A stretch of DNA of 64,000 bases from Candidatus Woesearchaeota archaeon (GCA_964621025.1 CAZUKQ010000001.1:15288-79287); one strand, 5' to 3'; shown: positions 48,896-63,554, numbered from the stretch's first letter. Translations and numbers: made by a program. The notes: generated by a model not told the origin, from the sequence alone.

Positions 48896-50260
48896 ATGGT
48901 TGAAAAAGAATATACTTTTTTGGAGGCAACAACTTCTCTTTGTAATGTTTGCGAAAAAAGAATAGATGCGAAAATAATTGAAAAGAATAAATCGGTTTAT
49001 ATTTTAAAAAATTGTTTAGAACACGGCGAACAAATTGAATTATTGGAAGAGGATGCCGTTTATCACAGAAGAAAAATTCAGTATGACAAACCGGGAAACA
49101 AAATAAGGCCTGAAACTGCTGTGAAGAAGAGTTGTCCATTTGATTGTGGTCTTTGTTCTGCGCATGAACAACATACCTGTAATGCTCTAATCGATGTGAC
49201 TGATAAATGTGATTTGTGTTGCCCAATGTGCTACGCTTCTAGCGGAAAGGGGAAACATTTAGAGTTAAAAAAAATTGAAGAGATGATGGATTTTTTCCAG
49301 AAAAAAGAAGATGGAAAGGCTGAAATTTTGCAAATCAGCGGCGGAGAACCAACAACTCACCCAGAAATTATAAAAATACTTGAAATTGCAAAGAAAAAGA
49401 AATTTAGATATATAATGTTAAACACAAATGGATTGAAAATCGCTAGCGATGAAAATTTTGTTAAAGAACTTTCTAAGTTTAAAGGAAGATTTGAAATTTA
49501 TCTGCAGTTTGATGGTTTTAAAGATTCTACTTATAGATTCCTTAGAGGAAGAGAAGATTTATTGAAAACTAAAATGAAAGCAATTGAAAATTTGCAAAAA
49601 TATAAAATTCCAATAACTCTTGTTGCGACTATACAAAGGGGAATAAACGAAGATGAAATTGGAAAAATCTTTGAGTTTGCTGTTAACACGCGAGGAATAA
49701 GGGGAATAAATTTTCAGCCGGTTGCTTTTTTTGGAAGAACAAATAAATTTGATACCAAAGATAGAATTACACTTTCTGGAATTGTGAATAGACTTGAACA
49801 ACAAACTAAGGGAATGGTTAAGCGAACAGACATAATTCCTCTGCCTTGTAATGTTAATCGTGTTGGTGTGAGTTATTTTTACAAAGACGCGAAGGGATTT
49901 TTTCCCTTGACGAGAAATTTGAATGTTAGTTCTTACTTGCCTTTAATCGATAACACTTTTGCATTTGATGCAGATAAAATTTTAGAAGATAAAACAAAGG
50001 CTATTGGTTGTTGTAGCTGTTTTACAAAGTTTTTTAATGATTTTAGTAAATTAATTCCAAAGGATTACAAAAAATTCTCCAATGAAGAGAAGATGAACTG
50101 GTGGGATGAACATTCTTTTAGAGTTAGTATTGTTTCCTTTGTTGACAAATACAATTTTGATATGAAATCTATGAAAAAAGAATGCGTACATTTCGTAACT
50201 CCTGATATGAAAAGAATTCCTTTTTCTTCGTATAATATGTTTTACAGAAAGGCGATTTAG
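48896..50260 (+). CDS. radical SAM enzyme with N-terminal Cys-rich segment and extra CPFDCGLC cluster motif (possibly tetraether-lipid-synthase/MJ0619-like clade)
   Basis: CNVCEKR...NCLEHG, CPFDCGLCSAHEQHTC, the radical SAM motif CDLCCPMC (C-x3-C-x2-C), ISGGEPT, and a ~200-aa C-terminal extension with CC.C. Confidence 0.8.
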   Translation: MVEKEYTFLEATTSLCNVCEKRIDAKIIEKNKSVYILKNCLEHGEQIELLEEDAVYHRRKIQYDKPGNKIRPETAVKKSCPFDCGLCSAHEQHTCNALIDVTDKCDLCCPMCYASSGKGKHLELKKIEEMMDFFQKKEDGKAEILQISGGEPTTHPEIIKILEIAKKKKFRYIMLNTNGLKIASDENFVKELSKFKGRFEIYLQFDGFKDSTYRFLRGREDLLKTKMKAIENLQKYKIPITLVATIQRGINEDEIGKIFEFAVNTRGIRGINFQPVAFFGRTNKFDTKDRITLSGIVNRLEQQTKGMVKRTDIIPLPCNVNRVGVSYFYKDAKGFFPLTRNLNVSSYLPLIDNTFAFDADKILEDKTKAIGCCSCFTKFFNDFSKLIPKDYKKFSNEEKMNWWDEHSFRVSIVSFVDKYNFDMKSMKKECVHFVTPDMKRIPFSSYNMFYRKAI

Positions 50261-51779: not shown

Positions 51780-52547
51780 ATGTTCGACTTTCACACCGTT
51801 CCTGTTTCTGACTGGGGAGTTTTACCTGTTTTGTTTAAAGTTGGAGATATTCCCATTTCTTCCTATTCTTTCTTCATGTTGTTGGCGATTGTCTTGGGTA
51901 GTTTAGTCTATTGGCTTGAGGCGAGAAAACAAAAGATGGCTAATGAGAATAGTTTTTACATTATTATTGCTGCTTTGATTGGTGGTGCTATTGGTGCGAA
52001 ACTCCTGATAGTTATTTACTATTGGAATCAGATTGTTGCTAGCTTTCCTGACTTGACTATTCTGCTTTCTGGTCGGTCTATTCTTGGCGGTTTGGTAGGA
52101 GGGTTTCTGGGAGTGTTATTAGTTAAAAAGAAATTGAAGATACAAGGGAGAAGAGGAAATTTGTTTGTCCCTGCGATTGCGCTCGGTGTAGCTATTGGAA
52201 GAATTGGCTGTTTCTTGGCTGGATGTTGCTTTGGTGATCCTACGAGTTTGCCATGGGGCGTTGATTTTGGTGACGGAATTTTAAGACATCCTACACAGCT
52301 GTATGAATCTCTGTTTATGCTTGGCGTGTTCTTCTATTCTAAATGGAAGTTGAAAGATAAGAAGCTTAAGCCGGGACAGTTGTTTAATCAGTTCATAATA
52401 ATCTATTTTGTTTGGAGATTCCTTGTTAGTTTCATTAGGGCTGAACCTTCTGTTCTTTTTGGACTTGACTTCTTCCAGTGGTTTTCTCTAGGTGCAATTA
52501 TATTGTTTTGGATTAGGGGAAGAAAATTTAGGAAACAGAATAAATAA
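51780..52547 (+). CDS. lgt: prolipoprotein diacylglyceryl transferase (bacterial-type Lgt)
   Basis: GRIGCFLAGCCFGDPTSLPWGV and RHPTQLYESL are Lgt signatures. Polytopic, ~255 aa. Confidence 0.8.
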   Translation: MFDFHTVPVSDWGVLPVLFKVGDIPISSYSFFMLLAIVLGSLVYWLEARKQKMANENSFYIIIAALIGGAIGAKLLIVIYYWNQIVASFPDLTILLSGRSILGGLVGGFLGVLLVKKKLKIQGRRGNLFVPAIALGVAIGRIGCFLAGCCFGDPTSLPWGVDFGDGILRHPTQLYESLFMLGVFFYSKWKLKDKKLKPGQLFNQFIIIYFVWRFLVSFIRAEPSVLFGLDFFQWFSLGAIILFWIRGRKFRKQNK

Positions 52548-58610: not shown

Positions 58611-58907
58611 ATGTTGAGCAAAAATGCTAGATCTCTTTTGAAAAGAGATGACTTGACTCATGTTGAAAGAAGATTATGGGGCTGTCTTGCAAGAGTTGAA
58701 TCAATGGGAGAGGATTCTGGACTTATCGGTTTAGTTATTCCTTCTTGGAACGTAGACGAAGTTTTAGAATTTCCTTGGGATAAATTTCCTGTCAAGCTTA
58801 TGTCAAAATTTGAAGAGGGATACAGGTTTCATACTGAAGCAAATGTTGGGGCTCCAAAAAAGGTTTCTGATTTGTACATTAACATTGATAATTATAGATT
58901 TTATTAG
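58611..58907 (+). CDS. hypothetical protein (98 aa)
   Basis: ORF track with a canonical promoter. Confidence 0.45.
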   Translation: MLSKNARSLLKRDDLTHVERRLWGCLARVESMGEDSGLIGLVIPSWNVDEVLEFPWDKFPVKLMSKFEEGYRFHTEANVGAPKKVSDLYINIDNYRFY

Positions 58908-59197
58908 AAATCTTCTGGAGTCCAGGTTCTTCTTGTTCTAAGAAATAAATTTGCTTTTTCATCATTAGAGACTATTGAATATCGCCATCCTCGTTTGTAA
59001 TCCTGACATTCTAATTTCATAACTGTCGCCGAAAGTAACGCATAATATCTGCCGTGAATAGTTCTTTGATTTATTTTAGATTTTTCTTCTTCAAGTTGTC
59101 TCATTGCTCGCTCAAATAAAATTCGGTCTATATCTCTTCTCTCAAATTCTATTGGGAGTTCTTTAAGTTGTTCGTATGCATCTTCAATGAGAGTCAT
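58904..59197 (-). CDS. hypothetical protein (97 aa), downstream member of an overlapping two-gene pair
   Basis: Its ATG overlaps the stop of 59197-59448 by 1 nt. Confidence 0.45.
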   Translation of the reverse strand: MTLIEDAYEQLKELPIEFERRDIDRILFERAMRQLEEEKSKINQRTIHGRYYALLSATVMKLECQDYKRGWRYSIVSNDEKANLFLRTRRTWTPEDF

Positions 59198-59448
59198 TAT
59201 GATTTTGCGATTCTTTCTAAAGTTTCTTGGCTTGCAAATGCACCTGTTGTAGCAGTCATTCCCCTTATATAGGATCTTTCCGCTGCCTTATATATTGCGT
59301 AAGCTATTCCCGTTTGGTAAGGTTCTCTGATTAGTTCTCTAGATATATTAAAATAAGAATTAAGCTTCTCAAAAAAGGTGTCTTTATTTTCCGGTTTGCC
59401 ATACATTACACGTGCAATCGCTAATTGTCTTAATTTTTGTTTATTCAT
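59197..59448 (-). CDS. hypothetical protein (83 aa), upstream member of an overlapping two-gene pair
   Basis: ORF track. Lies 22 nt downstream of the Lrp-like gene on the same strand. Confidence 0.45.
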   Translation of the reverse strand: MNKQKLRQLAIARVMYGKPENKDTFFEKLNSYFNISRELIREPYQTGIAYAIYKAAERSYIRGMTATTGAFASQETLERIAKS

Positions 59449-59470
59449 TTGATTTTTAGTAAACGAGGTA

Positions 59471-60424
59471 TTAAAAAGATTTAGATAGTTGAAGAGGTAG
59501 AAACTTGTATCTTTCTAATAGGGGGAAAACCTCAAAGTTAGAAATTTCTTTCTCTAGGATTGTTCTTATTTGTGAAAGCGTAGAAATCAGATCTTTATTA
59601 TTTGCTGAATGAAATCTTATCATGCACTGATACTTTCCTTTTGTTTTTTTAAGATAGTGAAGATTTCTCATCTCATGAAGAAGGTTTAGTTTTTTTTCAT
59701 CTATTGTGGAATTTAATTTTAACAGCATAATATATGAACTTAAACCACAACGGTGTTTATTTGTTCTTGTGTAAAAACCCAAGATTACTTTTTCTTTTAG
59801 AAGGCGACTTATCCTATATCTAACTTGGTGTTCTTCTAGTTTCAAACTTTCTGCCAAATCAATAATTCTTGCTCTTCCGTCTTTTGCTAGTAAATTAATT
59901 AGTTGAATGTCTGTTGAATCAATTTTTGTTGAATTAAAATTTAGCTCTACTTTTTTATTAATTTCTTCTGTCCCCGTATCCATTGAGTAAAATTTTAGTT
60001 CTTCCGATTGAATTATGTCCATTTCTTTAATAATTTTAGAATGAACCATCTTCTTAATTTTTTGTTTGACTTCCTTTTTAGTTTTAGCAATCATTTGTAA
60101 TTCTAAATCGTACTTGCCCATAATCCATGTTATCGAAACAAGTTCAGTATTTGATTTTAATTTATTAAGAAATTCTGTATTTGATTTTCCTGGGGAGTTT
60201 AGTCTTATATAAATATGAAAAAGATTTAATTCTAGTTTTGGATAGTTTACAAGGGGGAAATATGAGAGAATGTACATTTCTTTTTTCAACTTATTCATTC
60301 TGTCTCGAACGCTATCTTTTGAGATGTGTGTAATTTTTGCTATTTGGTTGTAACTTAAACGTGCATTGTTACAGATTGCTAGAAGAATTGCATTATCTCT
60401 TGCCGTTAGTTTATAGTTTTTCAT
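59471..60424 (-). CDS. fused double Lrp/AsnC-type transcriptional regulator
   Basis: Two HTH_AsnC-like segments (LTARDNAILLAICNNARLSYNQIAKITHISKDSVRDRMNKL and DIQLINLLAKDGRARIIDLAESLKLEEHQVRYRISRL). Each is followed by a ~70-aa RAM-like region. Confidence 0.7.
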   Translation of the reverse strand: MKNYKLTARDNAILLAICNNARLSYNQIAKITHISKDSVRDRMNKLKKEMYILSYFPLVNYPKLELNLFHIYIRLNSPGKSNTEFLNKLKSNTELVSITWIMGKYDLELQMIAKTKKEVKQKIKKMVHSKIIKEMDIIQSEELKFYSMDTGTEEINKKVELNFNSTKIDSTDIQLINLLAKDGRARIIDLAESLKLEEHQVRYRISRLLKEKVILGFYTRTNKHRCGLSSYIMLLKLNSTIDEKKLNLLHEMRNLHYLKKTKGKYQCMIRFHSANNKDLISTLSQIRTILEKEISNFEVFPLLERYKFLPLQLSKSF

Positions 60425-60445
60425 TTAACTTTATTTTATTTATTC

Positions 60446-60453
60446 TATATATA
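60446..60453 (-). promoter_or_regulatory. TATA-like box (TATATATA) for the Lrp-like gene
   Basis: Starts ~29 nt upstream of ATG 60424 on the minus strand. Confidence 0.45.
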
Positions 60454-60485
60454 CTTTCCGTTTTGGCGCTTTTTTTATGAGAAAG

Positions 60486-60493
60486 TAATATAT
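60486..60493 (+). promoter_or_regulatory. TATA-like box (TAATATAT) for the RiPP-like operon
   Basis: Starts 30 nt upstream of ATG 60516. Confidence 0.45.
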
Positions 60494-60515
60494 ATCTTCC
60501 GATCACCTTAGAAGT

Positions 60516-60839
60516 ATGGAAGACCTAACTTCTAAAGCAAAACCAAAAGAAATAGTTTATATAATGGATCATGAAAGTGTTAATGGGTTTTGTACCATTG
60601 GCTTGTTTGAAGATAGTTCGGTTATCTACAGGCTTACTAAAGATGCCTCACTAATAAGAAAACCTGGAAGACCAGATCATCCTATAGAACTGCGAGATGA
60701 AGAATGTGAAGTATATCGGCCAATTAATCCTAATGATAGTATATCTAGAAATATTGGAAGAACATACGATTCTGAAGAAAGTCTATCAAGAGAATTTGGG
60801 AGACCTTATTATCCTTTAGAACTAGGGGGTGACGAGTAA
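60516..60839 (+). CDS. hypothetical protein (107 aa), first gene of the RiPP-like operon
   Basis: Internal repeat GRPDHPIEL / GRPYYPLEL. Its stop overlaps the ATG of precursor 1 (TAATG). Confidence 0.5.
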   Translation: MEDLTSKAKPKEIVYIMDHESVNGFCTIGLFEDSSVIYRLTKDASLIRKPGRPDHPIELRDEECEVYRPINPNDSISRNIGRTYDSEESLSREFGRPYYPLELGGDE

Positions 60840-61066
60840 TGGTAACTTCTTTACTAGCATTAATTGATGGCTTAAAATTAACTGGTCAAGAAATTTCTTC
60901 CTCAGGTAGACTTGCTTATTCTTCAGTTTATCAAAGAAGTAACGGAGATTGTGGTAGTGATACGGGGGGCTATTGTCATTGTCCAGAAGACAATAACTGC
61001 GACTGTAATCCTAGTGGGGCATATTGCGATTGTCATAGTTTATTCAACGTTGGGGGTAACAAATAA
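60839..61066 (+). CDS. RiPP-like precursor peptide 1 (75 aa)
   Basis: Leader MVTSLLALIDGLKLTGQEISSSGRLAY. Core GDCGSDTGGYCHCPEDNNCDCNPSGAYCDCHS. Tail GGNK. Confidence 0.7.
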   Translation: MVTSLLALIDGLKLTGQEISSSGRLAYSSVYQRSNGDCGSDTGGYCHCPEDNNCDCNPSGAYCDCHSLFNVGGNK

Positions 61067-61154
61067 AATGGTAAATTCATTAATAGCATTATTGGACGGT
61101 TTAAAATTAACAGGTAGAGCAATTTCTTCAGAAGGAAGATTGGCTTATGCAACA
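61055..61154 (+). repeat. 100-nt perfect direct repeat, copy 1 (end of precursor 1 plus leader of precursor 2)
   Basis: GGTAACAAATAAAATGGTAAATTCATTAATAGC...GCTTATGCAACA is identical to 61296-61395 by direct reading. Confidence 0.85.
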
Positions 61155-61307
61155 CAAAAGGTAATAGATTTTAGTTATTCTTGGGACTGTTCTGAATTTA
61201 ACAATTGTGATTGTAACGCAGAGTGTGATTGTGGTGATTGCAATTTTCAAGGAGCAGTGATTACTTCTTCAGATAATAGATACTTCATGAAAGGAGGTAA
61301 CAAATAA
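61068..61307 (+). CDS. RiPP-like precursor peptide 2 (79 aa)
   Basis: Leader MVNSLIALLDGLKLTGRAISSEGRLAYAT. Core SWDCSEFNNCDCNAECDCGDCNFQ. Tail GGNK. This is the real start inside ORF-track 60912-61307. Confidence 0.7.
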   Translation: MVNSLIALLDGLKLTGRAISSEGRLAYATQKVIDFSYSWDCSEFNNCDCNAECDCGDCNFQGAVITSSDNRYFMKGGNK

Positions 61308-61395
61308 AATGGTAAATTCATTAATAGCATTATTGGACGGTTTAAAATTAACAGGTAGAGCAATTTCTTCAGAAGGAAGATTGGCTTATGCAACA
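61296..61395 (+). repeat. 100-nt perfect direct repeat, copy 2 (end of precursor 2 plus leader of precursor 3)
   Basis: Identical to 61055-61154. The repeat period is 241 nt. Confidence 0.85.
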
Positions 61396-61488
61396 GTTGG
61401 TTCTTTGTCCTACAATGGTCACTGTGATTGCGAAGGAAATTGTCAAGTTCCAAGTGGAGATTATTGTCCTGCACCAAGCGACCAATAG
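61309..61488 (+). CDS. RiPP-like precursor peptide 3 (59 aa, not in ORF track)
   Basis: Hand translation gives MVNSLIALLDGLKLTGRAISSEGRLAYATVGSLSYNGHCDCEGNCQVPSGDYCPAPSDQ*. AGGAGGT lies 10 nt upstream. Confidence 0.65.
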   Translation: MVNSLIALLDGLKLTGRAISSEGRLAYATVGSLSYNGHCDCEGNCQVPSGDYCPAPSDQ

Positions 61489-61549
61489 TTTCTTATATAA
61501 ATTTTTTTAATTTTTTTAATAAGCATAAAGAGGGGTGATAAAAACCAAG

Positions 61550-62602
61550 ATGATAAACAAATTCAACGCAGTTTGGTTAGCAGTCACCTACGACTGTCAA
61601 AATAAATGTAAATGGTGTTATGCCTCTTCAAATATGGAGGCTTACCGAGGTAGAAATTTACCTCAAGAAAAAATTGCTCCCACTCTAGATTTATTGAAAG
61701 AACTCGGAGTATCTAGAACTACATTAATTGGAGGTGAACCAACTATTTATAAATTTCTCCCTACACTTTTAGAAGAACATCAAAAAAGAGGGATAAAGGC
61801 CGGATTGGTCACAAATGGAAGAAGATTAAAAGACAAAGAATTTTCTGGCATGATAAAAAAATTAGGAATAGAAAGTCTGACCGTTTCTATAGAAGGATAT
61901 GATTCAAAATCTCAAGACAGTTTAACACAATCACCCGGAAGTTATGAACAAGCTATGGAAGGAATTTACGTTGCTAGTTCTAAAGGAATTAATGTTAGTA
62001 CAAATACTGTAATCAGTAAATCTAGTGTAGACAATCTTGAAAAAATAGTAGACTCTTTAATAGATACTCCTGTAAAATCTCTTTCATTTAATGTTTGTGG
62101 ACCTTGTTTAACGAGTGAAGATAATCCTGAAATTATTAACCCTTCATTAGCTGCTAAAAGATTTGAAGAAATTTACAAATATACTAAGGCAAAAGGAAAG
62201 GTTGCTCGGCTTGTTACCCCCATTCCTTTATGTTTTTTTGAGGAAGAAATAAGAACTGAACTAGCTTCTCAAAAATTGATTTATGGTGGTCCTTGTCAAT
62301 TGGCTCATGGACATAATTTTGTTATTGATTACAATGGAGATTTAATTCCTTGTACACATATGTCTGGTTTTCCAATGGAAAATATTTTTACCAAAGAAGG
62401 GGTTTTATCTTCTGAGAAATTTATTGAGAGATATAATTCTCCTAAAGGAATTCCATTTCAGTTTAGACAGAAATTAAATAGGACTGCATCTGAAAAGTGT
62501 GATTCTCCTAATTGTAATCAGCCATGTTCTGGCGGTTGTCCTTTAATTTGGAAAGGATTCGATCCAGATAAAGAAATAAGGGGTGTCTCCAAACTTTTAT
62601 AA
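61550..62602 (+). CDS. radical SAM enzyme with C-terminal SPASM-like domain (peptide maturase candidate)
   Basis: CQNKCKWC (C-x3-C-x2-C), LIGGEPT, C-terminal GDLIPC (G-x4-C) and CDSPNCNQPCSGGC. Start at ATG 61550, with GGGGTGAT 10 nt upstream. The ORF track uses GTG 61535. Confidence 0.85.
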   Translation: MINKFNAVWLAVTYDCQNKCKWCYASSNMEAYRGRNLPQEKIAPTLDLLKELGVSRTTLIGGEPTIYKFLPTLLEEHQKRGIKAGLVTNGRRLKDKEFSGMIKKLGIESLTVSIEGYDSKSQDSLTQSPGSYEQAMEGIYVASSKGINVSTNTVISKSSVDNLEKIVDSLIDTPVKSLSFNVCGPCLTSEDNPEIINPSLAAKRFEEIYKYTKAKGKVARLVTPIPLCFFEEEIRTELASQKLIYGGPCQLAHGHNFVIDYNGDLIPCTHMSGFPMENIFTKEGVLSSEKFIERYNSPKGIPFQFRQKLNRTASEKCDSPNCNQPCSGGCPLIWKGFDPDKEIRGVSKLL

Positions 62603-62624
62603 ACTTCCTAGTGATTAGATTATT

Positions 62625-62834
62625 ATGGCAAAGAAAAAAGAAAAAGATGTCTGCTGTCGAAGTTATTCGGCCGGTTCTTGCGGAAGTGGTGTCTATGGTC
62701 TTGGCTTTTTAGGAGCTATGATTTACTACATCTCCACTGCAACAAGTTTCTGGGCAGGCGCTTTAGGAATTTTGAAAGCTTTGGTTTGGCCAGCTTTCTT
62801 AGTTTATGAAGTTTTGAAATCTTTAGCTGCTTAA
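62625..62834 (+). CDS. small 2-TM membrane protein with Cys-rich N-terminus (69 aa)
   Basis: MAKKKEKDVCCRSYSAGSCGSG, then GLGFLGAMIYYI and LKALVWPAFLVYEVL. Lies 22 nt after the radical SAM gene. Confidence 0.55.
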   Translation: MAKKKEKDVCCRSYSAGSCGSGVYGLGFLGAMIYYISTATSFWAGALGILKALVWPAFLVYEVLKSLAA

Positions 62835-62876
62835 GTTTTAAGAGAAAAATTGTAGAATTGTTCTAAATGAAATTTT

Positions 62877-63554
62877 TTAAATCTTCTCTCTAGAATTATT
62901 GATGCAAAGGGAAACTTTCATGTAATCATCACTTGGAACTAAATAAGCTATTTTTCTAATTTTATTTGGTAAAATATCTGCTTCCAAGATTATTGCAGTC
63001 AGATGTCTAAGAATTTGTTGATCATAGTTTGACTGGATTTTTTGTTTGTCTTCTTTTTCTAAATTTCGCGAAGCTACTTCAAAACACCATTTTTCTAGTT
63101 GGCTTCTATCAAATGTTACTCCGGTTTCCTCCAATTTAAAGTAGGCAATTTCTATTTGTGGATTTCCATAGGAACCTATATTTCTTTTATTATTCTTAGC
63201 TATCTCTTTCTTAGAGAATTGGTATTCTTTGGAAGGATCGAACTGGGTAGCATGATCTTGGTCAACAAAAAAAGGGATTACGCTTCTGTCAGGAAAACAT
63301 ACTTTCTTTTTCCCAGAAAAATTATGATATTTTATCATTGCCCGCTCGATAATGTTCTCTAAATGAGTCTCCATAATAAAGGGGATGTGTGGAGAAAGAT
63401 ATCCGGAGGGGCTGTAACCTTCATACTCTAGAGTTTGACAAGCATATTCAAATAAAAAAGATAGCGCCTCCTTTTCGTCAACATAAATGTTCGTAGGATC
63501 CGAGTCATTTAGTGCTCGTATGTAATCTCTAACGGTGTCCATTTCTTGGCCCAT
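62877..63554 (-). CDS. hypothetical protein (225 aa)
   Basis: ORF track. Convergent with the RiPP-like operon. Confidence 0.5.
   Translation of the reverse strand: MGQEMDTVRDYIRALNDSDPTNIYVDEKEALSFLFEYACQTLEYEGYSPSGYLSPHIPFIMETHLENIIERAMIKYHNFSGKKKVCFPDRSVIPFFVDQDHATQFDPSKEYQFSKKEIAKNNKRNIGSYGNPQIEIAYFKLEETGVTFDRSQLEKWCFEVASRNLEKEDKQKIQSNYDQQILRHLTAIILEADILPNKIRKIAYLVPSDDYMKVSLCINNSREKI

What the first reader, a model, noticed from the sequence alone, without database searches (positions are those of the whole stretch)
60516..62834. Apparently undescribed archaeal RiPP-like system: three tandem Cys/Asp-rich precursors plus a radical SAM/SPASM maturase
Three consecutive small genes (60839-61066, 61068-61307, 61309-61488) encode peptides with a nearly invariant ~28-aa N-terminal leader: MV(T/N)SL(L/I)AL(I/L)DGLKLTG(Q/R)(E/A)ISS(S/E)GRLAY. 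Their C-terminal cores are completely different but all dense in Cys, Asp and Asn with recurring C-D-C or C-H-C units (GYCHCPEDNNCDCNPSGAYCDC; DCSEFNNCDCNAECDCGDC; HCDCEGNCQVPSGDYC). A conserved leader with hypervariable cores is the hallmark of RiPP precursor families. The next gene is a radical SAM enzyme with a SPASM-like C-terminal domain (G-x4-C, CDSPNCNQPCSGGC). That class installs Cys thioether crosslinks in sactipeptides and ranthipeptides. Known members include Cys-to-Asp beta-carbon links (PapB) and the Cys-Asp/Glu links made by QhpD, which fits the Asp-rich cores. A small Cys-bearing 2-TM protein follows. A coupled 107-aa orphan and a divergent double-Lrp regulator precede the precursors. 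I do not recognise the leader as any known family (not SCIFF, Nif11 or NHLP-like). No protease or ABC exporter is in the operon. The ORF track obscures the system, because the third precursor is 59 aa and the second is hidden in a mis-started 131-aa ORF.
Basis: partly seen in the sequence, partly recalled or inferred. Interest (0 to 1): 0.92.

Follow-up and report, generated by a model that had tools for sequence, protein, structure and literature searches.

The report
Archaeal radical-SAM modified Cys/Asp-rich peptide cassette
A tiny symbiotic-type archaeon carries three tandem genes for cysteine/aspartate-rich peptides with a shared leader, next to a radical SAM enzyme that most likely cross-links them; the same peptide-enzyme pair recurs in dozens of related archaea and, more distantly, in bacteria, yet is named in no database or paper I could search.

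Summary
Three SD-coupled small genes (60839-61066, 61068-61307, 61309-61488) share a ~29-aa leader and have Cys/Asp/Asn-rich cores. A 350-aa radical SAM/SPASM enzyme follows (61550-62602).

It is not just a local duplication. In about 22 of 25 loci carrying a 34-69% identical enzyme, nearly all from DPANN archaea, one homologous peptide sits directly upstream. A leader-only HMM built from those relatives picks the window's three peptides as its top hits. The P3 core is conserved in the nearest relative mostly through synonymous changes.

Twenty-one of the 25 loci add a third gene, a ~220-aa HExxH protein that is probably the leader peptidase. The window and its nearest relative lack it. A more distant enzyme branch (24-30% identity) in Patescibacteria, Clostridia and others carries similar peptides downstream. 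The shared core unit is [D/N]-C.

No Pfam or NCBIfam family and no paper found covers the peptides, the enzyme clade or the HExxH protein.

The 107-aa ORF is a true orphan. The 69-aa membrane protein and the double-Lrp regulator persist in a syntenic relative that lacks the cassette.

Best reading: an uncurated rSAM/SPASM RiPP-like family, probably thioether-forming. The chemistry is untested.

The parts
59471..60424 (-). Double Lrp/AsnC-type regulator (317 aa), divergently transcribed. It probably regulates the cassette but is not specific to it.
   Evidence: It has two HTH_AsnC/HTH_24 domains. Homologous double-Lrp genes lie divergently next to distant rSAM-peptide cassettes in L027, L028 and L043. 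However, a 55% identical ortholog in syntenic L082 faces unrelated 188-aa and 62-aa genes and there is no rSAM there.
60425..60515 (.). AT-rich divergent intergenic region with two TATA-like boxes (about 60444-60454 and 60483-60496). Each lies about 25 nt from the ATG of the gene it faces, which suggests leaderless transcripts (inferred).
   Evidence: Read directly from the sequence. There is no SD motif before the 107-aa ORF. The promoter inference rests on general knowledge of archaeal promoters and was not tested.
60516..60839 (+). 107-aa orphan ORF, the first cistron. Its stop overlaps the P1 start by 1 nt. It contains an internal GRPxxP(I/L)EL repeat. Role unknown.
   Evidence: No Pfam or NCBIfam hit. 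No homolog in 80 related loci. HMMER against 1.84 billion representatives returns only itself plus two spurious repeat hits.
60839..61066 (+). Precursor P1 (75 aa): leader MVTSLLALIDGLKLTGQEISSSGRLAY plus a Cys/Asp/Asn-rich core.
   Evidence: It is present as a called protein in NCBI and Logan data (P0153).
61068..61307 (+). Precursor P2 (79 aa).
   Evidence: (P0121).
61309..61488 (+). Precursor P3 (59 aa). Its core GHCDCEGNCQVPSGDYCPAPSD is orthologous to the single precursor of the nearest relative, L001.
   Evidence: Across 22 core codons, 9 are identical, 9 differ synonymously and 4 differ non-synonymously relative to L001. Also.
61502..61517 (+). Two T7 tracts between P3 and the enzyme gene. 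They may be an archaeal oligo-T attenuator that sets the precursor:enzyme ratio (inferred).
   Evidence: Read from the sequence. Relatives have shorter spacers and only some have T-tracts, so this is weak evidence.
61550..62602 (+). Radical SAM/SPASM enzyme (350 aa). It has no N-terminal RRE domain.
   Evidence: The AlphaFold2 model has pLDDT 86.7. Foldseek TM-scores are 0.73 to SuiB and 0.68-0.71 to anSMEcpe. Homologs begin at the equivalent of ATG 61550.
62625..62834 (+). 69-aa Cys-bearing 2-TM protein. It is co-oriented with the cassette but probably not part of it.
   Evidence: No homolog in 80 related loci. A 93% identical copy occurs in L082, next to the Lrp ortholog, with no rSAM or peptides present.

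Best explanation
This is a divergent member of a compact, uncurated RiPP-like cassette found mainly in DPANN archaea. The usual cassette is: leader-bearing [D/N]-C-rich precursor, then an RRE-less radical SAM/SPASM enzyme, then an HExxH putative peptidase.

In this window the cassette is a probably leaderless operon: 107-aa orphan, three SD-coupled precursors, then the enzyme. It sits opposite a double-Lrp regulator.

Proposed mechanism (inferred):
1. The ~28-aa leader (hydrophobic LLxxxxxIxLxG segment, then ISSxGR) docks directly on the enzyme.
2. The enzyme reductively cleaves SAM.
3. The 5'-deoxyadenosyl radical abstracts a hydrogen from a core residue, most plausibly a side-chain carbon of an Asp or Asn flanking a Cys.
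4. A Cys thiolate, positioned by an auxiliary Fe-S cluster, closes a thioether.
5. This repeats across the 5-7 Cys of each core and gives a small, acidic, multiply bridged peptide.
6. The leader is removed by the HExxH protein in relatives, and by an unidentified protease in this genome.

Shown: gene anatomy, homology, conservation, co-diversification and the enzyme's fold class. Inferred: that the peptides are modified, which bond forms, how the leader is removed, and what the product does.
For: - **Conserved pairing.** About 88 close enzyme homologs exist, nearly all from DPANN. In about 22 of 25 genome loci a 54-75-aa homologous peptide ends 0-50 nt before the enzyme gene. In several loci the junction is TAA directly followed by ATG.
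- **Peptide family.** The peptide profile finds 39 protein clusters, all named 'hypothetical'.
- **Leader homology.** It is shown independently of core composition.
- **Purifying selection.** The P3 core against the L001 core has 9 synonymous and 4 non-synonymous codon changes.
- **Third gene.** An HExxH gene with invariant H141, E142 and H145 follows the enzyme in 21 of 25 loci.
- **Co-diversification.** Core type follows enzyme clade in a 73-enzyme tree. Distant bacterial branches also carry [D/N]-C-rich peptides.
- **Core unit.** 73% of core Cys are preceded by D or N, against 31% in shuffles; none of 1000 shuffles reaches the observed count.
- **Enzyme fold.** CxxxCxxC, a C-x13-G-x4-C motif and a C-terminal Cys cluster are conserved. 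Full-length structural matches are peptide-modifying SPASM enzymes: SuiB, anSME, CteB, PqqE. The best sequence match among solved structures is the sactisynthase SkfB.
- **Chemical precedent.** PapB makes Cys-Asp and Cys-Glu thioethers (abstract of PMC9413430, listed).
Against: - There is no biochemical or expression evidence.
- The enzyme reaches no curated family cut-off. Its best NCBIfam score is 78 bits against cut-offs of 265 or more for the peptide maturases listed.
- Sequence and fold do not discriminate thioether formation from C-C or C-O cross-linking, epimerisation or Cys oxidation.
- The window lacks the HExxH gene and any exporter.
- No RRE or PqqD-like partner is conserved, so leader recognition is unexplained.
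- The immediately adjacent [D/N]-C spacing differs from the C-x3-D units of PapB substrates (from memory).
- Cys/Asp-rich peptides could simply be metal ligands.
Confidence: 0.62

Rival explanations
1. The enzyme does modify the peptides, but the bond is not a Cys-Asp/Asn thioether. Alternatives include alpha-carbon sactionine links, C-C or C-O cross-links, epimerisation, or oxidation of Cys (as anSME does). The [D/N]-C units would then serve another purpose, such as metal binding in the mature product.
For: Structural neighbours include SuiB (C-C link), anSME (Cys oxidation) and PqqE (C-C link), with TM-scores as good as or better than the thioether-forming CteB. The best NCBIfam scores are generic, to HxsC4, AhbD, ACGX and NirJ. 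The adjacent [D/N]-C spacing is unlike known ranthipeptide motifs (from memory).
Against: Cys is the dominant conserved residue, at about 30% of the core. In characterised SPASM RiPP systems with multi-Cys cores, thioethers are the usual outcome (general knowledge; the reviews PMC8172795 and PMC8326336 are listed). Aromatic residues needed for cyclophane-type links are not conserved in the cores.
Confidence: 0.2
2. The cassette makes a peptide-derived cofactor or an intracellular metal-binding or redox peptide, following PQQ or mycofactocin logic (peptide + SPASM enzyme + peptidase), rather than a secreted bioactive RiPP.
For: The three-gene set of peptide, SPASM enzyme and peptidase, with no exporter or immunity gene conserved in 25 loci, matches cofactor-type cassettes. 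Cys and Asp are classic metal ligands. The cassette is kept in very small DPANN and CPR genomes.
Against: Cores diversify strongly between clades and even within this one operon, in length, Cys number and repeat number. That is atypical for a cofactor precursor with a fixed reactive motif. No downstream tailoring or cofactor-using enzymes are conserved nearby. The cassette is patchily distributed and sits in a variable slot: it is absent from syntenic L082.
Confidence: 0.1
3. The small ORFs are unmodified Cys-rich metallopeptides or non-functional duplicates, and the radical SAM enzyme next to them has an unrelated substrate.
For: There is no direct evidence of modification. P2 and P3 share a 100-nt exact repeat, which shows recent duplication or gene conversion. 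The SPASM Pfam score is just under threshold.
Against: Adjacency, orientation and tight coupling are conserved across about 22 archaeal loci, and the pairing recurs in distant bacterial branches. The leader is homologous across loci. The core shows synonymous-biased divergence. The peptides and the enzyme are lost together in L082.
Confidence: 0.05

Closest known systems
Ranthipeptides made by PapB-type SPASM enzymes (freyrasin) and SCIFF/CteB-type systems
   Same: Ribosomal precursor with an N-terminal leader and a multi-Cys core containing acidic or polar acceptor residues. A single radical SAM/SPASM maturase is encoded alongside. PapB links Cys to Asp or Glu (PMC9413430 abstract).
   Different: The peptides hit no SCIFF or other precursor model. 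The enzyme scores far below the PapB cut-off of 340 bits; the best score to any family is 78 bits. The core unit is adjacent [D/N]-C rather than C-x3-D (the latter from memory). The partner gene is an HExxH protein of no known family. The hosts are DPANN archaea.
Sactipeptide synthases (SkfB, AlbA, CteB, StsB)
   Same: SkfB is the best sequence match among solved structures (E 4.7e-20 with the family profile, radical SAM core only). CteB and SuiB align over the full length.
   Different: There is no N-terminal RRE domain, since CxxxCxxC begins about 16-21 residues from the N-terminus. The enzyme is about 100 residues shorter. HMM scores are well below cut-offs (StsB 66 bits against 625).
QhpD/QhpC (Cys-Asp and Cys-Glu thioethers in quinohemoprotein amine dehydrogenase)
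   Same: A SPASM enzyme that forms several Cys-to-Asp/Glu thioethers in one small Cys- and Asp-containing polypeptide (from memory).
   Different: No qhp dehydrogenase genes occur in the window or in the related loci. The substrates here are leader-bearing, diversifying peptides, not an enzyme subunit.
Haft-type uncharacterised radical SAM/SPASM repeat-peptide systems (ACGX, His-Xaa-Ser, GDL-motif, GeoRSP)
   Same: A short-motif repeat peptide next to a dedicated SPASM enzyme, discovered purely by genome context. ACGX and HxsC-family models are among the best NCBIfam scores (73-78 bits).
   Different: All scores are far below the cut-offs of 268-500 bits. The repeat unit, leader and taxonomic range differ. 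There is no curated model for this family.
PQQ and mycofactocin cassettes (PqqA/E/D/F; MftA/B/C/E)
   Same: Small peptide, SPASM enzyme and peptidase as the core gene set. PqqE is a structural neighbour with TM-score 0.63.
   Different: There is no PqqD/MftB-type RRE partner and there are no downstream tailoring enzymes. The cores are long, multi-Cys and variable rather than carrying one fixed reactive motif.

Membership tests
Radical SAM/SPASM-dependent RiPP (generic class) | Precursor with a conserved N-terminal leader and a more variable C-terminal core | tested here: met
   Alignments of 23 and of more than 30 further peptides. A leader-only HMM recovers P1-P3 at E 8e-6 to 9e-5.
Radical SAM/SPASM-dependent RiPP (generic class) | Precursor gene conserved next to and co-oriented with the maturase across taxa | tested here: met
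   About 22 of 25 close loci. The pairing recurs in distant bacterial branches.
Radical SAM/SPASM-dependent RiPP (generic class) | CxxxCxxC radical SAM cluster plus C-terminal auxiliary-cluster Cys motif (SPASM) | tested here: met
   C21, C25 and C28 are invariant, as are C233, C254, C273, C322, C331 and C335, together with G-x4-C. The Pfam SPASM score is 20.6 against a gathering score of 21.5, and homologs carry PF13186. Fold matches SuiB and anSME.
Radical SAM/SPASM-dependent RiPP (generic class) | Leader peptidase and/or exporter in the cluster | tested here: not met
   None is present in the window, in L081 or in L001. However, 21 of 25 relatives carry an HExxH gene immediately downstream.
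Radical SAM/SPASM-dependent RiPP (generic class) | Demonstrated post-translational modification of the core | not testable with these tools
   Needs co-expression and mass spectrometry.
Ranthipeptide (SCIFF / PapB families) | Precursor and maturase reach the curated NCBIfam models (SCIFF precursor, SCIFF maturase, rSAM_PapB NF047865) | tested here: not met
   The peptides hit 0 families. The enzyme's best score to any family is 78 bits, and the PapB cut-off is 340.
Ranthipeptide (SCIFF / PapB families) | Thioether from Cys sulfur to a non-alpha carbon of an acceptor such as Asp, Asn or Thr | not testable with these tools
   Only composition is compatible. The cores are about 30% Cys and 26-31% Asp+Asn, and 65-73% of Cys are preceded by D or N.
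Sactipeptide synthases | N-terminal RRE (PqqD-like) domain fused to the radical SAM domain | tested here: not met
   CxxxCxxC starts at residue 21 (residue 16 counting from ATG 61550). PDB alignments start at residue 100 or later of SkfB, SuiB and CteB.
Anaerobic sulfatase-maturating enzyme | Reaches TIGR03942, and a sulfatase substrate with C/S-x-P/A-x-R lies nearby | tested here: not met
   51.9 bits against a cut-off of 349. No sulfatase is present in the neighbourhood. The fold is similar, with TM-score 0.68-0.71.
QhpD/QhpC | Encoded in a quinohemoprotein amine dehydrogenase operon | tested here: not met
   No such neighbours in the window or in 25 related loci.
ACGX / His-Xaa-Ser repeat-peptide systems | Enzyme reaches TIGR04340 or TIGR03977/NF038332, and the target peptide has ACGX or HxS repeats | tested here: not met
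   73, 66.6 and 78 bits against cut-offs of 400, 268 and 500. The peptides have [D/N]-C units instead.

The most novel reading that the evidence does not exclude
The window belongs to a superfamily that spans both domains and has no name: '[D/N]-C repeat' peptides modified by an RRE-less SPASM enzyme. It appears in this survey among ultra-small episymbiont lineages (DPANN archaea, Patescibacteria/CPR) and anaerobic Firmicutes. Under this reading the enzyme installs a cross-link pattern not yet described, for example a dense lattice of near-vicinal Cys-Asp/Asn thioethers, or a Cys/Asp cage for a metal. The product would mediate symbiont-host or competitor interactions.
Probability: 0.3. Interest if true: 0.8.

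Novelty: new variant of a known kind. Interest (0 to 1): 0.62.

Why it matters
Radical SAM/SPASM RiPPs are a major source of new peptide chemistry. I found no report of one from DPANN archaea, whose reduced genomes make any retained accessory cassette informative about their lifestyle.

This analysis turns a single-window curiosity into a defined family:
- a leader motif;
- a [D/N]-C core unit;
- a compact ~350-aa maturase with no RRE;
- an HExxH partner protein of unknown family.

Dozens of natural enzyme-substrate pairs are now in hand, across archaea and bacteria. That gives chemists a ready panel for co-expression. It also gives annotators three protein families that currently have no model. 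If the bond type is new, the value is chemical. If it is an ordinary thioether, the value is mainly taxonomic and ecological.

Tried and rejected
- **Known families.** NCBIfam and Pfam scans of every gene in the locus, of relatives' peptides, of distant bacterial enzymes and of the HExxH protein reached no curated family.
- **Direct peptide search.** Searching with P2 alone found only P2 and P3. The family appeared only through enzyme neighbourhoods and then a peptide profile.
- **107-aa ORF as a conserved RRE-like partner: rejected.** It has no homolog in 80 loci or in 1.84 billion representatives. The two weak hits are tandem-repeat artefacts in giant proteins.
- **69-aa membrane protein as part of the system: rejected.** It is absent from all related loci and is kept at 93% identity in a cassette-free syntenic contig.
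- **HExxH gene elsewhere in the window or downstream: not found**.
- **HExxH family against PDB and Pfam: no match**.
- **Chemistry from PDB and Foldseek.** Only generic SPASM neighbours came up.
- **Oligo-T attenuator as a family feature: not general**.
- **tRNA and Rfam scans of the window: nothing**.
- **Literature.** Nine full-text searches, including literal core sequences, found no description. Subscription-only papers were not searched.
Full report
**1. What is in the sequence**

The region 60516-62834 holds the following on the + strand:
- a 107-aa ORF (60516-60839);
- three small ORFs: P1 (60839-61066, 75 aa), P2 (61068-61307, 79 aa), P3 (61309-61488, 59 aa);
- a radical SAM gene;
- a 69-aa ORF (62625-62834).

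A 317-aa protein with two Lrp/AsnC HTH domains is encoded divergently at 59471-60424.

Leader comparison:
- P2 and P3 are identical over their first 29 codons. They lie in a 100-nt exact repeat, 61055-61154 = 61296-61395.
- P1 and P2 share 14 identical codons, with 7 synonymous and 8 non-synonymous differences.
- So there is one recent duplication or gene conversion, and one older duplication in which the leader protein sequence has been kept.

Translation signals:
- Each peptide ATG is preceded at 6-8 nt by GGGGGTGA, GGGGGTAA or GGAGGTAA. These motifs lie inside the preceding gene's last codons.
- This explains the odd shared 'GGNK' tails of P1 and P2.
- Stops and starts are 0-1 nt apart.

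The enzyme most likely starts at ATG 61550 (350 aa). That start equals database protein P0001 and aligns with the N-termini of homologs.

The cores are about 28% Cys, against 1.3% in the window's long ORFs.

**2. Organism**

The window encodes MCM, an ATP-dependent DNA ligase, an aCPSF1-like beta-CASP nuclease, a HAN nuclease and GatB/E. GC content is 34%. The enzyme's close homologs are nearly all from Nanoarchaeota, Pacearchaeota and Woesearchaeota MAGs. This is a DPANN archaeon.

**3. Not a local oddity**

The enzyme has about 88 close homologs (37-70% identity) in a database of 5.8 billion proteins. Identity then drops to about 30%.

A scan of one genome per species returned 25 close loci and 55 distant ones. 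Findings in the close loci:
- In about 22 of 25, one 54-75-aa ORF lies directly upstream on the same strand. In several loci its TAA stop directly abuts the enzyme's ATG.
- These peptides share the leader pattern M-x-x-x-L-(L/I)-x-x-x-x-x-(I/L)-x-L-x-G-(G)-x-(I/L)-S. Their C-termini are Cys/Asp-rich, for example DDCDCYGGDCSDCYCTDCNEG and SDCCYGADCGDCDCGGYCIDSECD.
- A profile of them finds 39 protein clusters, all annotated 'hypothetical protein'.
- A leader-only HMM built from 22 relatives, without the window and without L001, ranks P2, P3 and P1 as the top three of 701 Met-starts in the window (E 8e-6 to 9e-5; next best 0.046).
- The nearest relative is L001, with 69% enzyme identity. Its single precursor has the core GHCDCPGNCPVPTEDYCPAPSD, which matches P3's GHCDCEGNCQVPSGDYCPAPSD. 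Across these codons 9 are identical, 9 differ synonymously and 4 differ non-synonymously, which indicates purifying selection.

**4. A third family member that the window lacks**

In 21 of the 25 close loci the enzyme gene is followed immediately by a ~220-aa protein. It has invariant H141, E142 and H145 (HExxH), and H149 is nearly invariant. It matches no Pfam, NCBIfam or PDB entry.

I read it as a zincin-type leader peptidase. That rests on the motif and the gene context only.

The window, its downstream extension L081, and L001 have no homolog. The window's subclade therefore either uses a protease encoded elsewhere or does not remove the leader.

**5. A wider superfamily**

Enzymes at 24-30% identity occur in Patescibacteria, Clostridia, Bacilli, Erysipelotrichaceae and Proteobacteria. 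They also have a small Cys/Asp-rich ORF, usually downstream. Examples are LDCDCVDSDCSIGTYCEG, SDCDGDCGQDDCDCADYDDC and three copies of CHCSSDDCxGNNCYD. The leader differs (Y-x-G-T-x-I-x-A-P), and some loci have an HExxH gene. None is in NCBIfam.

In a neighbour-joining ordering of 73 enzymes, core type follows enzyme clade. The window plus L001 nest inside the DPANN clade.

The unifying element is the dipeptide [D/N]-C:

| Set | Core Cys preceded by D or N | Shuffle control |
|---|---|---|
| DPANN cores | 120 of 165 (73%) | mean 51, maximum 68 in 1000 shuffles |
| Window P1-P3 | 11 of 17 | mean 4.6, maximum 10 |
| Bacterial branch | 50 of 78 | mean 22.6, maximum 34 |

A sister archaeal clade (L027, L028, L043) has a double-Lrp regulator, a peptide with ESC(L/M)S(L/M)G repeats, and the enzyme.

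**6. The enzyme**

- Conserved residues are CxxxCxxC (C21, C25, C28), then C233, then C254-x13-G-x4-C273, then C322-x4-C327-x3-C331-x3-C335.
- Pfam gives Radical_SAM at 75 bits, and SPASM at 20.6 bits against a gathering score of 21.5.
- Best NCBIfam scores are generic (HxsC4 78 bits, AhbD, ACGX, NirJ1, WgkB, MoaA). All lie far below their cut-offs.
- Against solved structures the family profile hits SkfB best (E 4.7e-20, radical SAM core only). Full-length alignment is obtained only to SuiB; the single-sequence search also aligns CteB over its full length.
- The AlphaFold2 model (pLDDT 86.7, pTM 0.87) superposes best on SuiB (TM 0.72-0.73), anSMEcpe (0.68-0.71), BlsE (0.65), CteB and PqqE (0.63).
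- This fixes the fold class as a peptide-modifying SPASM enzyme. It does not fix the chemistry.
- There is no room for an N-terminal RRE. No PqqD-like gene is conserved nearby.

**7. Accessory genes**

- The 107-aa ORF has no relative anywhere that I could detect. It is translationally coupled to P1 and has an internal GRPxxP(I/L)EL repeat. Its role is open.
- The 69-aa membrane protein belongs to a cluster of members at 90% identity or more.
- One member lies on contig L082, which is syntenic with the window. Orthologs and their identities are: 97-aa gene 46%, 83-aa gene 33%, double-Lrp 55%, 225-aa gene 31%, plus the SNF2 helicase (identity not measured).
- L082 has no enzyme, no precursors and no 107-aa ORF. 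There the Lrp gene faces unrelated 188-aa and 62-aa genes.
- So the membrane protein (93% identical in L082) is probably not part of the system.
- The Lrp regulator appears to guard a variable 'cargo' slot, which here holds the cassette.

**8. Mechanism**

Shown: gene anatomy, coupling, homology, co-diversification and fold class.

Inferred:
- TATA-like boxes about 25 nt from both divergent ATGs suggest leaderless transcripts.
- Two T7 tracts at 61502-61517 may attenuate transcription into the enzyme gene. This is not general in relatives.
- The leader docks on the enzyme without an RRE. The 5'-deoxyadenosyl radical abstracts a hydrogen from an Asp or Asn side chain next to a Cys, and thioethers form repeatedly.
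- PapB provides a precedent for Cys-Asp and Cys-Glu thioethers (PMC9413430, listed).

My probabilities:
- about 0.8 that the peptides are substrates of the enzyme;
- about 0.4-0.5 that the bonds are thioethers to Asp or Asn.

**9. Known or new**

No model or name exists in Pfam or NCBIfam for the peptides, this enzyme clade or the HExxH protein. Nine full-text searches, including literal core sequences, found nothing specific.

The general kind, a Cys-rich precursor plus a SPASM maturase, is well known. This is therefore a new variant of that kind rather than something categorically new.

Limits on this conclusion:
- subscription-only literature was not searched;
- generic BGC miners may already flag such loci as 'RiPP-like' or 'ranthipeptide' without describing them (my own expectation, not tested).

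Noticed in passing
L082:1601-3572 compared with window 58904-63554: A syntenic contig from a related archaeon keeps the double-Lrp regulator (55% identity) and the small membrane protein (93% identity). In place of the rSAM cassette it has a 188-aa and a 62-aa gene that share the N-terminal motif HNxGQTDASNGV. The slot opposite the regulator therefore looks like a variable cargo site.
   Followed up: partly
window 62625-62834: The 69-aa Cys-bearing 2-TM protein is 93% identical between genomes whose flanking orthologs are only 31-55% identical. This is unusually strong conservation for a protein with no known family.
   Followed up: partly
L027:3975-4169, L028:4736-4963, L043:4817-4954: A sister archaeal clade (Aenigmatarchaeota and others) pairs a 26-30% identical rSAM and a divergent double-Lrp regulator with a different precursor type. 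Those precursors carry ESC(L/M)S(L/M)G repeats.
   Followed up: partly
L025-L080 (for example L053:6008-6148, L051:5990-6151, L044:6030-6290): The bacterial branch of the enzyme superfamily has [D/N]-C-rich peptides downstream of the enzyme, with the leader motif Y-x-G-T-x-I-x-A-P. Some cores are exact tandem repeats, such as three copies of CHCSSDDCxGNNCYD. L038 has two enzyme paralogs in tandem, each with its own peptide.
   Followed up: partly
L002-L024 and L032, immediately downstream of the enzyme (for example L004:6058-6714): A ~220-aa HExxH protein family has invariant H141, E142 and H145 and no Pfam, NCBIfam or PDB match. It is a candidate new metallopeptidase family.
   Followed up: partly
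window 60516-60839: The orphan 107-aa ORF contains an internal repeat: KPGRPDHPIELRDEE and EFGRPYYPLELGGDE.
   Followed up: no
window 48896-50260: A second radical SAM protein (454 aa) in the window resembles TrsS and the tetraether lipid synthase Tes. Scores are 354 and 313 bits, below the cut-offs of 490 and 450.
   Followed up: no
window 51780-52547: A clear Lgt (prolipoprotein diacylglyceryl transferase, PF01790, 143 bits) homolog occurs in an archaeal genome. Lgt is normally a bacterial lipoprotein-pathway enzyme.
   Followed up: no
L016, L018, L022: Cassettes nearly identical to Woesearchaeota ones sit on contigs binned as Patescibacteria, 'bacterium' or Methanosarcinales. This could be mis-binning or recent transfer.
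   Followed up: no
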